64,000 bases of DNA from Fimbriosthenelais zetlandica (taxonomy: Eukaryota). The first letter of the stretch is position 1. Each line of letters opens with the position of its first letter. Below are positions 39,001 to 48,000 of this stretch, in pieces. Position numbers: made by a program. Location: the NCBI GenBank assembly GCA_977030845.1, contig OZ365113.1, positions 16,926,001 to 16,990,000 on the forward strand. Reading direction: 5' to 3'.

Positions 39001-42000
39001 TTCTGGCTTTCAACATTACAAAAAAACTCGATATCAACCCAGCTTCCATTCCCGATATTTCATGATCTTTGCACGCTAGATGCCCCTGGTTATGTTCCAG
39101 GCAAATAATGGCCAAGCCCATGCAATCTTATCCAATTTATGAAATTGAATCCTATAGATTAGACTGTCCCAATCTAGACTGCCCATCATGTGCACGCATA
39201 CTCATAAATCTACATCATAGTGGACGTCTCACAATGATTAGTGGAAAATCAATGCCCTTAATGTGCCTTGGGGGCTTTCTTCCAACTCTCATTCAAAGGG
39301 GTCAAGACACGAATGTTGGAAAAGTTACAAAAGAGATTTATAATGCAACCTCTTATATTCTGGAATGCTCCTAATAATAATATAGGAAGGATCAATAGAG
39401 ATCTACGCTCCAAGAGTAAAGGCTTTTCGTAACATCTCTTCACTATCGATCATATGCTGTTCGATCCTTGCCATATTTGCTCAGTGGAGATGACTTTCCC
39501 TAGTCACACTCCCCACATAAACAGATTACATGCACACACAGGGTGTAAACAATGCCTTTGTTACATCATTGATTGCCGATAAATGAATTCTGCCTTACGC
39601 CTAATACCTCTTGTTTATTCTTGCAGGGCCCACGATGGGATGTGGATGGAAACTCCTTCATGAGGCATAAAATATTTCAACTCATCCATAAGGGAACGAA
39701 GATAAAAACAGCTTTGCCTGGCAGAGTTAATATGTTTGGCTATTGCCCATTGCCAAGATAGAGGATTGAGATACATACATGCTGTATGTAATGGACATAG
39801 AAAACAGGGAACTTCTTGATGTATATATCTTTCAGCAAGGGATACCCAATATCAGCCAAGCAATAATGAATATCTAGATTGATCTCACAGAAGCTTCGAT
39901 TATTCATGATTTTTCTCTTCACGGAAAGGGGGAGAGATACATTTGGAATGTGGATGGATCTTGGATATAGGGGTGGATGACAAGGGCTGATACCATGAAT
40001 CAATTCCCATAACAAGTGTAAACACTCGCCAGCATCTCCTCAAAAAAAATACTCTCAACTCGACAAGCACATCTCCACACAGACAGACTACTTCCAACTC
40101 CACAGAGATTCATTTTAGATTGGAGAGCCAGCAAGAGAAGTAAATGAGGGGGGAAAAAGAACCCTCACCCTCAATGGGACATGTTTTGAAAATTAATGTC
40201 ACCCCATGGGAATCGATAGAACAGAGAGATACTGCTGGATCCCATCTTGGGAGGAAATGATATTTCAGTGGAGGAGTTGTCACTGGTGAGGTTTTGCTGA
40301 TTGATTAGGAGCCGTGGTGGTGTGCCTGCCAATGAGGCACGTGGAGAAGATTGCGGATACGTCTCCAACAGGGCTCCAGTCAATTGTCTGCAATTGGTGA
40401 CTGGCTGCTGACTAGTGAAGCCTTGTACCACGGGGAGGTGTTAGTTATTAGCGATTCCAAGCACACATACGTGTTTTTTGTTCCATCTGAAGCAGGGTCC
40501 GTGTCAGACTGATCCTCTGGATCTTCCGGATCCCTGGGGACTTGCCAGGCATTGAGATGCACTGCGGTGGATCCCACACGGCGTGAATGACGTGTCGCGA
40601 ATGCCACACCCGAGTCTATCCTACATCATACATACAGATTCAGGGAGAGAAAAAGGAGCGGCGTGATGGAGCAATATCCAATTTATCCATGATTTATCAT
40701 CACGATATCCATTAATCCAGATCATACAATAAAGGTTAGCACCCCGGGGTATGGGAAAATAAATATATCACGTTTATACTCCAAGATAGTCCAGCATCTG
40801 AATTTCTGAACCTCGCCCCAGTCTCACCTAGTGTCAAATATCTCACACACTGATCAAAATCAGGACCCACTGGGAAATCAGGATGATAAAGACTGGTCCC
40901 ATGGCTGGTCTGTAACTAAATTCCATGGTCGAAAAGGAAAGGGTGCTCATCTGGGTCGGATTTCTTTTATCTGAAGACTGGGGCTAATCAAAGGAAATGA
41001 AGGGAAAAAGCTTTCCTTTTACAGCTGACAGGAGAATATTAGGGGAGGAAAATTAATAGTGAAGCAGCGTAAGAAGTGGCAATGTCTTCACGAGAGAGGA
41101 TGTTATTCTTCCCACCACAGCTGTGTTTTAACAACTGTGCCGCTTTGATGAGGATCATCATGGGAGGCTGGTGGTGGCTTTTATTATGGGCAGGCTTAAC
41201 ATCCACATTACCAAAGGTGAAAGGTGAGCTAGGCGAACTCATCCCGTGGAATGCCACTTGTCCCATTAAGTGTATTTGCAGTATAAGGACCTCTGATGTA
41301 TTGCCTGATAGACATGCTCTGTACAGGACAGCTGACTGTACTAATAGAAAGCTTCAATCCTTGCCATCAAACATGCCTCATGATACAGAGGTGCTCTTAT
41401 TAAGGGGGAATGGTATCATGGCTTTTCACGAGCATCTCCCGTTCCTGGACCATCTCAGACAGGTTGACTTATCACATAACAATATTGGTACACTAGGCAT
41501 CCACCCTACCTTTGAGAACCTCACCCACATGCTGAGTCTTAACCTCGGCTATAATCAGCTCAGAGCTTTATTGCATGAAACTTTCAGAGGTCTGACAGGC
41601 CTGAGGGAGCTAAGGCTCAGACATAACCACATTCACTCCATAGAGGACCATAGTTTTGATGGCCTTAAGTCCCTGGAAGTGCTCGATCTTACAGGCAATG
41701 AGCTGCTCTCAGTGAGCCAACACTGGTTCGAGGCACTCCCGAACTTACAAGAGCTCATACTTGACGACAACCGTATAAAAACGTTGATTAACAGTCCATT
41801 CCAACCGTTAAAAAAACTCTCCAAGCTTTCGCTCCGGGCAAACTTTTTGCAAGGTCTAGACAAAGCCACATTCAGAGGTCTTGAATCCTTACAGATATTG
41901 GACATGAATTATAACAGGTTTGAAAAAGTTCCTTCAAGAGCTTTCACAATATTCAAAAGGCTCAAGTTCCTATCTTTAGATGGTAATCCAGTTGATTCTT

Positions 42001-45000: not shown

Positions 45001-48000
45001 AGGCTGGAATAAAATCAGTGAAATCAAAATGAAATAAAAATGTATATTATAATTAACTCATCGTCAATTTTAGGTGAGCGCTTCTAATTAAGATTTGCAC
45101 TAATTGCTATAATATTATTTTAGGGAGAGCAGACTTTAACTGCTACAATGTTCTCGTGTAATGCAATGTTATGCTGCAATTATTTGAGTTGTTGGAAATA
45201 CCCTTGAATTATAAAACATCTGTATACATGATCCTGAATAGGTTTGACATGAATCAGACATGCCTGTGTTCCGCTCCACTTGGCAGGCTTAGCAAGGCCA
45301 TTACTTAGCAACTCTCCGTTGGCCAACACTTGGCAGGTAAGTGGTTTTACCCCTTACCCCACCACCACGAACCAAGCCCCCGACATGGTTATATGAATTA
45401 ATGCCTTCCAGAGGCATGTCTTCTAAGAACCATGAATCAGAGGCCTTATATTATCTCATACGGTGTTTGTATGAACACACCTATCTTTTATTGTGTACAG
45501 TGGACTGGGCTACCGGATCTCATAGGTCTACATGGTTTAATAACAGATCAGTTATATTCTATTATAAGACGCCAAGTTAGACAAATGTTGAGAATATTTC
45601 TTCTTGTATACTCAAAATTGGGGTAGAATTGACAATAGTGAATACGGGTCCCCCTTCATTCTCACTACCACACCAACCACACACCCTCGTCTCTCCACAT
45701 CATGGGTCCCCGTCCTGTCCCCATTGCTTTTATGACCTCGACCTCTTTCAAATCGGAGCACTCTATTTAAGTTATACCACCCGAGCATTAAGTGACATAC
45801 TCAACCCGATAGAATGTGGGTAGGGCGAAGGAGCAGGGGGTGTGGGGGCTTGCCCCCACATTATAAAGAAAGAAGGAATAATATAATTAAACCAAAATTG
45901 TTAGGAAGTGAATGAATGAATGTATTTATCATTTTTGAAAATAAGATATTTCTATTATTAGGTAGCTGGAGCACACAGCCTAAAATAAACAAATATGCCT
46001 TTTGCATGGGAGGAAAGTCATCATTGGGGTATGGGGGTTGGGGGGAATTAACTGTGGGTTTAGCAACTGAAATGGTGGTTTTACCCGCTTGTGTCTATAC
46101 ATAATATAACATAGATTATATCCTGGAACTCGTGGAAGGATCTGGGCAATCCCCACCATGATCAAACCGGTGATCATATTAGAAAGATTGACCTACTGTT
46201 TTCCATCCTGTTTAGCATTCATTCATTCAGTATTCATTCACCTGCACGAGGGTTCGACTTCTATCTTATTTAAAGTACACTGACAGAACTTTTATTCCAG
46301 CAAATCACCTTGTACTCACATCTGTGAATCCATCACTATGGGTCAGGAATGGTCTCGGCGTGTTGCAGGTGACTGCCCAGAGAGGATCTACACACCAGCT
46401 GAGACAATACACTTTATCAGAGTGAGTGAATGAAACCCAAGCTGTTTTAAATGTTGCTAAGGAATGTGAATAATTTCAGACGTTTTATTTGAATTATATC
46501 GCGTGTAGATTCTGAGCCAAGTTGAAAAATGATTTTGATTAATATTCCAGGAGTTGATGAAGCTTGATCAGCAGTATACCCAGTGTGTAGAAAATGGTGT
46601 TTATAGTTTTCTCGCATTCCGCATGGCTGATATGGGTAAATCAGAAGAGGTACGTCAGGCAGTGTCAAACCCAGAATATGTAAGGATGGCTGGGAGCTGT
46701 GCTGAGGGTGCAGCCATCTGTCGGTGGTTCAGGACTGGTATTCCTGATATTGAATTGGACATAAACTACCAGGTGAGCTTTTAATGCTTGACAGTCAGCA
46801 TGACAGTACCTACTTGTGAATCATATATATGCTCTTTTATAGCGTTGCCTCACTGAGGTATCAGTTGCATGCACATTACATGATTCCTCGCCCAGTCACA
46901 TTATCCTGACACCAGGCCGACCATTCACAGCACTGTCCCGTTAATGCCAAGTGAGGGAGCTACTAACTAATTTTTAGGTCTAAGTCTTTGGTTGTAATTT
47001 GAACTGTGATTGCTTTCTACCTGTACCAGAAATCTTGCCTATAGGCTAGGCCTACCCCTTTAGGTCTCATCATTTTGACTCTCTACTTCATTCATAATCC
47101 ATTCATTCAGATCTGTTCCTATTATCATAAACATGTCGATATTTCAGGTAGGAATCATATCTGCCGAGCAGGAAAAAAGGATATTGGAAGAAATTCCTGA
47201 AAAGCCTGGTTTTTTGAAAATCTACAACTCAAGGGAAACTTATGACTGTCTCCATCCACTCCTACGTCGTGCCCGCCCAGAGCTGAGCCAACAGTTCAAT
47301 ACGGGGACTTCTGACCAGACGTTTATCAACACGATCAGCATGCAGGATGATATATCTGCTATTTGGCCACACATGGATGGTGATAACGTTATTGGAAAGA
47401 TTAGTGCACTATTGATGGGTGTGGATGAATCGCTCATTGGTCAAATTCTAAAAGAAGAGGTGGTAGGTCCGTCAAACATGATGGAACTGGTAATCACACT
47501 GCGTGATGAGCCGGCCATTGCCTACTCCGCAGACAGTGTACTCACTCTCAAAGTGGAAAAACCGCCAGATGTCTTTAAACCCAGTCTTGAGAGAATACAG
47601 AAGTTCCTCTCTCCTGCTCTCATGCAAGAGTTACGACAGGCTTATACAGAAATTGTACCTAAGAAATCCCCTGGGGCAACAACAGAGGAGGAATGGAGGA
47701 GGTCCACCACACACCTGGAACATATCCTTATGAAGACTTGGAAGGAAGATGGAAATGACCAGAAAATGGTGTGCTACTTCACATTGAAGTCTCTCTACTA
47801 TCGCTACATCAGAGGTAGTATTTCATTACCATTATCTTAACACATGTCATATCAATTTAACCAAGAAATTCCCTTAATTTGCTGGTGGTGCCTGGTGGCC
47901 CAAAGTTATTTAGCGCATACATGTATCACAATAAGAAGCTTGGTTCAAAATGTTTCCATTCATGGATGGTTCTAGAACAAGTAACAAGGAGTATCTTTCT

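What the first reader, a model, noticed from the sequence alone, without database searches (positions are those of the whole stretch)
41082..45003. LRRN nested antisense in the same IMMP2L intron as vertebrate LRRN3
The LRRN gene lies on the opposite strand in the intron that follows the 104-nt phase-2 exon ending ...RGEVVSL. Established: human LRRN3 is nested antisense in the very large IMMP2L intron 3, which follows the homologous exon. Finding the same host exon, orientation and oversized intron in an invertebrate implies the nesting predates vertebrates and has been maintained, consistent with a genomic regulatory block in which IMMP2L is the bystander gene (inference).
Basis: partly seen in the sequence, partly recalled or inferred. 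Interest (0 to 1): 0.68.

Follow-up and report, generated by a model that had tools for sequence, protein, structure and literature searches.

The report
LRRN gene inside invertebrate IMMP2L intron
An invertebrate genome carries a neuronal-type LRRN receptor gene on the opposite strand just downstream of the same IMMP2L exon that precedes LRRN3 in humans, which suggests a very old nested gene pair, although the far end of the host intron lies outside the window.

Summary
The sequence features are real. A single-exon 738-codon ORF (41082-43298, +) encodes an LRR, Ig, FN3 and TM protein. It groups with vertebrate LRRN1/2/3 and invertebrate LRRN-like proteins, apart from 9 named outgroups (97/96 support). 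On the minus strand lie two consecutive IMMP2L coding exons: 48978-48868, and the 104-nt exon 45003-44900 (AG acceptor, GT donor, followed by a phase-2 intron). They were confirmed by tblastn, a profile HMM and named database hits.

No exon for IMMP2L residues 80 onward exists anywhere in the window, including 43.3-44.9 kb. That refuter therefore fails, but the nesting is not closed: the intron is at least 44.9 kb and runs off the window.

Papers confirm that human LRRN3 lies antisense in IMMP2L intron 3 and that the ATG is in exon 2. Isoform break points show the same exon boundary in vertebrates. This is consistent with the homologous intron.

Ancestral bilaterian nesting is the best reading (about 0.6). 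I could not survey other invertebrates, and the regulatory-block mechanism is untested. A second, unrelated antisense gene (Mab-21-like) sits in the preceding intron, so nesting in this host can also arise independently.

The parts
41082..43298 (+). LRRN-family gene. The whole CDS is in one exon (738 codons plus stop). The first ATG is at 41082; Met23 at 41148 aligns with the vertebrate start and signal peptide.
   Evidence: ORF. Pfam LRR_8, I-set and fn3. Vertebrate LRRN1/2/3 hits score 272-329 bits at 68-90% query coverage, and the best named hit is Owenia fusiformis at 45%. The alignment is collinear. Trees.
43050..43118 (+). Hydrophobic transmembrane stretch of the LRRN protein (aa 657-679). 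It is followed by the stop-transfer KRWRRRK and a 59-aa tail.
   Evidence: Read from the translation and located. No TM predictor was run.
43215..43244 (+). Cytoplasmic tail motif IPLDNLYHPP (aa 712-721), shared with vertebrate LRRN tails (IPLNEFYPP or FPLNKFYPP).
   Evidence: Alignment A2; P720 is invariant in 9 of 9 rows.
44900..45003 (-). IMMP2L second coding exon, 104 nt, starting in phase 0 and followed by a phase-2 intron.
   Evidence: Splice sites read directly. tblastn. HMM positions 44-79, E 7e-12.
48868..48978 (-). IMMP2L first coding exon (MTTWRVVV...VEGASMQ, 37 codons), carrying the catalytic-serine box GASM. The donor is GTAAAT.
   Evidence: HMM positions 13-45, E 8e-9.
45004..48867 (-). 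IMMP2L intron between the two coding exons (3864 nt). It fully encloses the + strand Mab-21-like gene.
   Evidence: for the length; for the enclosed gene.
1..44899 (-). Visible part of the IMMP2L intron that follows the 104-nt exon. It is at least 44,899 nt, is open at the window start, and contains the LRRN gene.
   Evidence: No match to IMMP2L residues 80 onward by motif scan, tblastn or HMM.
1..41072 (.). 41 kb upstream of the LRRN gene (in its own orientation) with no recognisable coding gene.
   Evidence: The longest ORF is 151 aa, and 42 of 100 block shuffles reach that length. The 10 longest ORFs gave no Pfam family above noise. No Rfam family was found.
47079..48501 (+). Mab-21 domain gene in two ORFs (47079-47840 and 47935-48501), antisense inside the preceding IMMP2L intron.
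   Evidence: Pfam Mab-21 (E 8.6e-4, below cut-off) and Mab-21_C (E 2.5e-11). Weak cGAS and MB21D2 matches.

Best explanation
The window comes from an invertebrate, most likely a spiralian. The IMMP2L orthologue (mitochondrial inner membrane protease subunit 2) is transcribed leftwards. A single-exon LRRN gene, co-orthologous to vertebrate LRRN1/2/3, is transcribed rightwards. It begins 3.8 kb and ends 1.6 kb downstream of IMMP2L's second coding exon.

The catalytic-lysine and C-terminal exons that IMMP2L needs are absent from the 44.9 kb that follow that exon. The intron therefore most likely continues beyond the window and encloses LRRN. This is the same phase-2 intron, and the same antisense orientation, as human LRRN3 in IMMP2L intron 3.

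The most economical reading is that the nest existed in the protostome-deuterostome ancestor. After the vertebrate duplications that produced LRRN1/2/3, only the LRRN3 copy kept its IMMP2L host.

Inferred mechanism of retention: regulatory elements of the tissue-specific LRRN gene are spread through the long host intron. Rearrangements that would separate the pair would then damage LRRN regulation or the essential host (genomic regulatory block, with IMMP2L as bystander).

Shown: gene identities, exon structure, orientation, and absence of further host exons in the window. Inferred: closure of the intron, ancestry of the nest, and the regulatory cause.
For: LRRN identity:
- Vertebrate hits named LRRN1/2/3 score 272-329 bits. 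The next families reach at most 234 bits with about a third of the query covered.
- Solved LRR families score far lower: IGFALS 175 bits, LINGO-1 111, LRIG1 107, LRRC4B 106, LRFN5 88.
- In the careful tree of 31 rows, the window, the invertebrate LRRN-likes and the vertebrate LRRN clade are separated from all 9 named outgroups at 97/96. The vertebrate LRRN1/2/3 clade is monophyletic at 100/100. The quick tree of 45 rows gives the same split at 99.
- The architecture is collinear and the tail motif is shared.

IMMP2L identity and exon homology:
- 2 of 4390 ORFs hit the IMMP2L HMM, at profile positions 13-45 and 44-79.
- Named hits are 'mitochondrial inner membrane protease subunit 2'.
- 6 of 8 same-species fish isoform pairs diverge right after RGDIVS(V/L)x, and the other 2 diverge one exon later. 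All 17 short forms end or turn unrelated at that same point.

Human arrangement, from passages in papers:
- LRRN3 is nested in intron 3 (PMC2913944; PMC4255718).
- The orientation is antisense (PMC3565204).
- The ATG is in exon 2 (PMC7105681).

Long gene-free flank.
Against: - The downstream host exons were not seen, so enclosure is an inference from the need for a catalytic lysine (established for type I signal peptidases).
- The HMM and tblastn queries for the missing exons were all vertebrate proteins (45 and 8 sequences). Their conserved boxes should still be detectable.
- Only two phylogenetic points exist (this window, and vertebrates from the literature). No other invertebrate locus could be inspected.
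- Nesting of intronless LRR genes has arisen repeatedly. LRRN1 lies in SUMF1 intron 8, LRRTMs lie in CTNNA genes, and further cases are listed in PMC3933685 Table 1.
- This same host carries an unrelated antisense Mab-21-like gene in its neighbouring intron. Gain of nested genes here is therefore not rare.
- Nothing was tested that bears on enhancers or conserved non-coding elements.
- The tree does not resolve how the invertebrate groups relate to the vertebrate clade (supports 30-49). It also lacks LRFN, LRIT, LINGO, NGL, AMIGO and FLRT rows.
Confidence: 0.6

Rival explanations
1. Convergent nesting. LRRN and IMMP2L came to be nested independently in this lineage and in vertebrates. This could happen by insertion of an intronless LRR gene into the largest host intron, or by the host transcript growing over a neighbouring gene.
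For: [quoted passage not shown] A second, unrelated antisense gene (Mab-21-like) is nested in the adjacent IMMP2L intron here. The largest intron is the likeliest target, and antisense is the commonest nested orientation (PMC2330155 Table 2: 152 antiparallel against 75 parallel nested pairs in human).
Against: The same two orthologous genes, the same intron position and phase, and the same orientation in two lineages would be a long coincidence among thousands of possible hosts, unless the genes were already neighbours. Prior linkage would itself be ancestral. The LRRN CDS is single-exon in both lineages (PMC2225406 passage).
Confidence: 0.17
2. Not nested here. The two IMMP2L exons are the 5' remnant of a rearranged, truncated or misassembled gene, and LRRN is simply a convergent neighbour.
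For: No exon for residues 80 onward lies in 44.9 kb. By contrast, the previous intron is only 3.9 kb and neighbouring genes are compact.
Against: Both exons have open frames, canonical AG and GT sites, and 49-83% identity to functional orthologues, including the catalytic-serine box. A very large intron at exactly this position is the known vertebrate condition. The window has no assembly gap.
Confidence: 0.13
3. The nest is ancestral but retained passively, not by a regulatory block. A gene inside an intron of an essential gene is shielded, because most breakpoints that would remove it also break the host.
For: The few overlaps conserved between ecdysozoans and vertebrates are all nested antiparallel pairs (PMC2330155 passage), which suggests that the geometry itself is durable. 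No regulatory evidence was obtained here.
Against: Two breakpoints within a 45 kb or longer intron would free or flip the nested gene without harming the host, so neutral retention over this time span seems unlikely (inference). Vertebrate data already assign LRRN3 as the GRB target with IMMP2L as bystander (PMC6906185 Table 1). The 41 kb gene-free flank fits a large regulatory landscape.
Confidence: 0.1

Closest known systems
Vertebrate LRRN3 nested antisense in IMMP2L intron 3 (human 7q31.1; also coelacanth and/or zebrafish)
   Same: The gene pair is orthologous. The nested gene has a single coding exon, is on the opposite strand, and sits after the second coding exon, at the same phase-2 boundary. 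This intron is much larger than its neighbour.
   Different: The window's gene is co-orthologous to LRRN1, LRRN2 and LRRN3 together, not to LRRN3 alone. The visible intron is tens of kb, where papers describe the human third intron only as 'large'. LRRN sits only 1.6 kb from the host exon. The far end of the intron was not seen.
Syn-Timp and the other two nested antiparallel pairs conserved between ecdysozoans and vertebrates (Solda et al. 2008, PMC2330155; passages seen)
   Same: It would be a nested antiparallel pair conserved across the protostome-deuterostome split, followed by duplication and loss among the vertebrate paralogues.
   Different: IMMP2L and LRRN are not named in that paper's main text (0 occurrences). 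Its additional files could not be opened. That study compared fly and worm, not spiralians.
LRRTM genes nested in alpha-catenin (CTNNA) genes (PMC3933685)
   Same: An intronless neuronal LRR transmembrane gene lies antisense in a large intron of an unrelated host.
   Different: According to that paper, LRRTMs have no invertebrate homologues and the nest arose in early vertebrates. The present pair would be much older.
Genomic regulatory blocks and conserved ancient microsyntenic pairs (Irimia et al. 2012, PMC3514665; PMC6906185)
   Same: A tissue-specific target gene sits beside or inside a housekeeping bystander with unusually long introns. LRRN3 is listed as target and IMMP2L as bystander in human.
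   Different: No conserved non-coding elements or enhancers were tested here. LRRN is an adhesion receptor rather than a transcription factor. Neither gene is named in the main text of Irimia et al., and its supplementary pair list was closed.

Membership tests
LRRN (leucine-rich repeat neuronal 1-3) family | Signal sequence, LRRNT, about 12 LRRs, LRRCT (as described for Lrrn1 in PMC2225406) | tested here: met
   The cysteine cluster CPIKCIC is at aa 60-66 and NPIRCDCN at aa 399-406. There are 10 strict LRR cores at a 24-residue period from aa 125 to 391, plus degenerate units by spacing. Pfam LRR_8 gives 5 stretches. The signal peptide was judged by eye only.
LRRN (leucine-rich repeat neuronal 1-3) family | A single Ig-like domain followed by one FN3 domain before a single TM helix and a short tail | tested here: met
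   I-set at aa 471-549 (E 1.4e-12). fn3 at aa 562-624 (25.8 bits, cut-off 25). Hydrophobic stretch at aa 657-679 and a 59-aa tail.
LRRN (leucine-rich repeat neuronal 1-3) family | Groups with LRRN1/2/3 rather than with other LRR families | tested here: met
   The split from 9 named outgroups has support 97/96 and 99. Bit scores are 272-329 for LRRN against 175 or less for solved LRR families. Caveat: the tree contains no LRFN, LRIT, LINGO, NGL, AMIGO or FLRT rows.
LRRN (leucine-rich repeat neuronal 1-3) family | Coding region in a single exon | tested here: met
   The ORF is uninterrupted from signal peptide to stop and collinear with its homologues.
LRRN (leucine-rich repeat neuronal 1-3) family | Endocytic sorting motifs (YXX-hydrophobic and di-leucine) in the tail | tested here: inconclusive
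   The block IPLxxxYxPP is conserved. Here it reads YHPP, which lacks the hydrophobic fourth residue. No di-leucine is evident in the 59-aa tail.
LRRN (leucine-rich repeat neuronal 1-3) family | Nervous-system-enriched expression | not testable with these tools
   No expression data were available.
IMMP2L / Imp2 (peptidase S26, mitochondrial inner membrane protease subunit 2) | Catalytic-serine box (G-x-S-M) near the N-terminal membrane segment | tested here: met
   VEGASMQ lies at the end of the exon 48978-48868. It aligns to the same box in named IMMP2L proteins.
IMMP2L / Imp2 (peptidase S26, mitochondrial inner membrane protease subunit 2) | Catalytic-lysine box (KRV) and the C-terminal GDxxxSxDS box | tested here: not met
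   Neither box is present anywhere in the 64 kb. I read this as the exons lying outside the window, not as a feature of the protein.
IMMP2L / Imp2 (peptidase S26, mitochondrial inner membrane protease subunit 2) | Sequence match to named family members | tested here: met
   A profile search returned 1074 proteins at E of 0.001 or less. The named proteins among the 120 listed were overwhelmingly annotated as mitochondrial inner membrane protease subunit 2 or Peptidase S26. The single exons are too short for Pfam: 0 families.
Nested (intron-hosted) gene pair | A host exon upstream and a host exon downstream of the guest gene | tested here: inconclusive
   The upstream exon is present at 45003-44900. 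No downstream exon lies within 44.9 kb.
Nested (intron-hosted) gene pair | Guest gene on the opposite strand, within the homologous intron | tested here: met
   Strands. Boundary homology: with papers. Human exon numbering was taken from papers; no human sequence was examined.
Genomic regulatory block (target plus bystander) | Conserved non-coding elements or enhancers for the target inside the bystander's introns | not testable with these tools
   No related invertebrate genomes or chromatin data were available.
Genomic regulatory block (target plus bystander) | Synteny kept across distant lineages | tested here: inconclusive
   Two points only: this window, and vertebrates from the literature.

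The most novel reading that the evidence does not exclude
LRRN-in-IMMP2L is a nest inherited from the bilaterian ancestor and kept in the same phase-2 intron and the same antisense orientation in spiralians and vertebrates. It would be one of only a handful of nested pairs of that age. It would be held together because the long IMMP2L intron is the regulatory landscape of the neuronal LRRN gene. In that case the neuropsychiatric associations mapped to human IMMP2L would sit in an ancient LRRN regulatory domain.
Probability: 0.35. Interest if true: 0.7.

Novelty: new member of a known kind. Interest (0 to 1): 0.5.

Why it matters
Nested gene pairs conserved between protostomes and vertebrates are rare. 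One survey found three overlapping gene clusters shared between ecdysozoans and vertebrates, all of them nested antiparallel pairs (PMC2330155).

A further example, with the same intron and the same orientation, would be a clean natural test of why nests persist. It would also provide a compact invertebrate model (tens of kb, against the very large human intron) for dissecting host-guest regulation. And it would bear on whether disease associations assigned to human IMMP2L really concern LRRN3 regulation (PMC6906185; PMC3565204).

My searches found no paper reporting the pair in an invertebrate. Supplementary pair lists of the microsynteny surveys could not be opened, so prior listing there is not excluded.

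Tried and rejected
the same exon, extended in frame to 41 aa by window reference and searched against longer proteins, gave 4 candidates and none scored.
- Pfam on the single IMMP2L exons gave 0 families even at E 10. The exons are too short.
- regular-expression scan for the serine, lysine and C-terminal boxes. There were no true hits. The serine box was missed because it is split by the intron, and was found with a shorter pattern.
- tblastn with 7 and then 8 IMMP2L proteins, and an HMM built from 45 full-length vertebrate proteins, run against 4390 ORFs of 8 aa or more on both strands. Nothing beyond the two exons was found. The best other hit scored 5 bits.
- Pfam on the 10 longest ORFs of 1-41000. 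The only hit was a sub-threshold CUB match (E 0.086).
- Rfam gave 0 families.
- two tandem repeats, neither in the finding.
- Rejected idea: that the Mab-21-like gene is a MAB21L1/2 orthologue. Its matches are weak and closest to cGAS and MB21D2.
- Not run, as not needed for the question: structure prediction, fold search, complex prediction, atlas search.

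
Full report
WHAT IS IN THE SEQUENCE

The window has no N runs, and I took none of it for human.

On the + strand a stop-to-stop frame runs 41073-43298. An in-frame TAA lies directly before the first ATG at 41082, and the stop is at 43296-43298. The 738-residue product carries LRR_8 (5 stretches, E 1.4e-47), one I-set Ig domain (aa 471-549, E 1.4e-12) and one fn3 domain (aa 562-624, 25.8 bits against a cut-off of 25).

Read directly, the protein has these features:
- an LRRNT cysteine cluster (aa 60-66);
- ten strict LRR cores at a 24-residue period between aa 125 and 391, with further degenerate units by spacing;
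- an LRRCT (NPIRCDCN, aa 399-406);
- a hydrophobic segment (aa 657-679) followed by KRWRRRK;
- a 59-residue tail.

Vertebrate LRRN proteins start where Met23 (41148) aligns, so that may be the real start.

On the - strand, AG (45005-45004) precedes a 104-nt exon, 45003-44900. The exon reads PALNPDVQKGVDYVLLDRWSIRDYKFERGEVVSL plus two bases and is followed by GTAAGT.

A second exon 3864 nt upstream, 48978-48868, reads MTTWRVVVGTVGFVVPVTVTCLDLFGYVAKVEGASMQ and is followed by GTAAAT.

IS IT MORE THAN CHANCE, AND WHAT ARE THE GENES

The 34-residue exon alone found 8 proteins at E of 0.001 or less among 1.84 billion representatives. A profile built from six of them plus the two window exons as separate rows found 1074 proteins. 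The named proteins among the 120 listed were overwhelmingly annotated as mitochondrial inner membrane protease subunit 2 or Peptidase S26.

An HMM of 45 full-length vertebrate IMMP2L proteins hit 2 of 4390 window ORFs. These were profile positions 13-45 (E 8e-9) and 44-79 (E 7e-12), and the next best ORF scored 5 bits.

For the receptor, the best named match is an unnamed-function protein of the annelid Owenia fusiformis (45% identity). Next come bivalve and crab proteins labelled LRRN1 or LRRN1-like. Then come vertebrate LRRN1, LRRN2 and LRRN3 at 28-33% identity, 272-329 bits and 68-90% query coverage. The next families (slit-like, chaoptin, Toll-like, LRIG) reach at most 234 bits with about a third of the query covered.

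No LRRN structure is solved. Solved LRR families score much lower: IGFALS 175 bits, TLR13 149, LGR4 135, LINGO-1 111, LRIG1 107, LRRC4B 106, LRFN5 88.

TREES

From the 120 listed hits I took 32 LRRN-like rows and 12 others, plus the window. I left out partial or near-duplicate LRRN-like rows (P0012, P0021, P0025, P0027, P0028, P0031, P0032, P0035, P0036, P0040, P0041) and most of the chaoptin and Toll hits.

The quick tree of 45 rows separates 10 outgroup rows from 35 rows at SH-aLRT 99. The 35 rows are the window, the invertebrate LRRN-likes, the vertebrate LRRN clade, and two unnamed rows that I had pre-labelled as outgroups.

A careful tree of 31 rows (finished) gives these supports:
- 97/96 for the split from all 9 named outgroups;
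- 100/100 for a monophyletic vertebrate LRRN1/2/3 clade;
- 100/99 for the window with its two closest unnamed relatives.

The order among the invertebrate groups and the vertebrate clade is unresolved (supports 30-49). The gene is therefore a co-orthologue of LRRN1/2/3, not of LRRN3 specifically.

Weakness: the families with the most similar architecture (LRFN, LRIT, LINGO, NGL, AMIGO, FLRT) are not in the tree. For LINGO, NGL and LRFN only the score gap speaks. A shared tail block (IPLDNLYHPP against IPLNEFYPP) adds support.

IS THE LRRN GENE NESTED

They do not. Motif scans, tblastn with 7 partial and 8 full-length IMMP2L proteins and the HMM find nothing for residues 80 onward, on either strand, anywhere in the window.

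The intron after the 104-nt exon is therefore at least 44,899 nt, against 3864 nt for the preceding one. But its far end is outside the window.

Enclosure of LRRN is an inference. Type I signal peptidases need the lysine of the Ser/Lys dyad (established knowledge). The two visible exons are intact and conserved. The missing exons should therefore lie further downstream. I put this at about 0.85.

A joined-model search is left out.

IS IT THE SAME INTRON AS IN HUMANS

From passages in papers:
- LRRN3 is 'a nested gene in IMMP2L ... positioned within intron 3' (PMC2913944).
- It is in antisense orientation (PMC3565204 Box).
- The long IMMP2L transcript has its ATG in exon 2 (PMC7105681 table note).
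- The nest is among the human different-strand nests also present in coelacanth and/or zebrafish (PMC3933685 Table 1).

If coding begins in exon 2, the second coding exon is exon 3 and the intron after it is intron 3.

I examined no human sequence. As indirect evidence for the boundary I compared database isoforms:
- In 6 of 8 same-species fish pairs the alternative form departs immediately after RGDIVS(V/L)x.
- In the other 2 pairs it departs one exon later.
- Of 17 short forms (fishes, sharks, a frog, a spider and unnamed sources), 9 end within three residues of that point and 8 continue with unrelated sequence. None continues with the next exon.

The position and phase thus match the window's exon end. 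That the break point at about residue 80 coincides with the end of human exon 3 was not read from a human gene model and remains an inference.

SURROUNDINGS

Upstream of LRRN, in its own orientation, 41 kb hold no recognisable gene:
- The longest ORF is 151 aa, a length that 42 of 100 block shuffles reach.
- The ten longest ORFs have no Pfam family above noise.
- No Rfam family is found.

Genes with only short exons would be missed by these checks.

The preceding IMMP2L intron fully encloses another + strand gene of two ORFs with Mab-21 and Mab-21_C matches. Its similarity to solved structures is weak and closest to cGAS and MB21D2.

A maestro-HEAT-repeat gene lies on the - strand at 58.7-63.7 kb.

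INTERPRETATION

The simplest account is an ancestral bilaterian nest. After the vertebrate duplications it was kept only by the LRRN3 copy.

The same two orthologues, the same intron and the same orientation are hard to obtain twice by chance among thousands of possible hosts. Convergence is still a real rival. Intronless LRR genes nest often: LRRN1 in SUMF1, LRRTMs in CTNNA genes, and others. This very host has acquired an unrelated antisense guest next door.

The regulatory-block mechanism is published for the human locus (target LRRN3; bystanders IMMP2L and DOCK4; PMC6906185 Table 1). Here it is supported only by the long gene-free flank. Passive protection by the nested geometry is an alternative.

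NOVELTY AND LIMITS

Three searches found no paper reporting the pair in an invertebrate:
- IMMP2L, LRRN3, microsynteny;
- IMMP2L, synteny, invertebrate;
- IMMP2L with bystander, amphioxus, Nematostella, nested gene, Branchiostoma.

The main texts of Solda et al. 2008 and Irimia et al. 2012 contain no mention of either gene. Their supplementary lists were closed and may contain it.

The following stayed closed or unavailable:
- the only open genome collection holds bacteria and archaea;

As a result, no other invertebrate locus could be inspected. That survey, and the flanking sequence, remain the decisive open steps.

The taxon of the window is inferred only from protein similarity and the gene tree.

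Noticed in passing
window 47079-48501 (+): A two-ORF Mab-21 domain gene (Mab-21_C E 2.5e-11; N-terminal part below the Pfam cut-off; weak cGAS and MB21D2 similarity) is fully enclosed, antisense, in the 3864-nt IMMP2L intron between the first two coding exons. IMMP2L therefore hosts at least one demonstrable nested gene here.
   Followed up: partly
window 58676-63651 (-): Three ORFs match successive parts of the MROH2B-like HEAT repeat profile (positions 86-155, 357-435 and 594-649). This indicates a maestro HEAT-like repeat gene upstream of IMMP2L on the same strand, running off the window end.
   Followed up: partly
window 60113-60303: A 46-nt tandem repeat, 4.2 copies, 91% matches, lies between exons of the MROH-like gene.
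   Followed up: no
window 41082-41150 (+): The LRRN ORF has 22 codons before the Met that aligns with the vertebrate and Owenia N-termini. The true start may be 41148 rather than 41082.
   Followed up: partly
window 11531-11945 (-): Three overlapping ORFs of 107-115 aa lie in all three frames of the minus strand. One has a Pro/Ser/Thr-rich low-complexity translation. This looks like a stop-poor simple-sequence stretch rather than a gene, and the two of these ORFs that were scanned (11534-11860 and 11601-11945) had no Pfam match.
   Followed up: partly
window 43299-44899 (+): Seven AATAAA or ATTAAA signals follow the LRRN stop, the last at 44883, only 17 nt from the IMMP2L exon. Depending on which is used, the LRRN 3'UTR could end next to the host exon or overlap it.
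   Followed up: no
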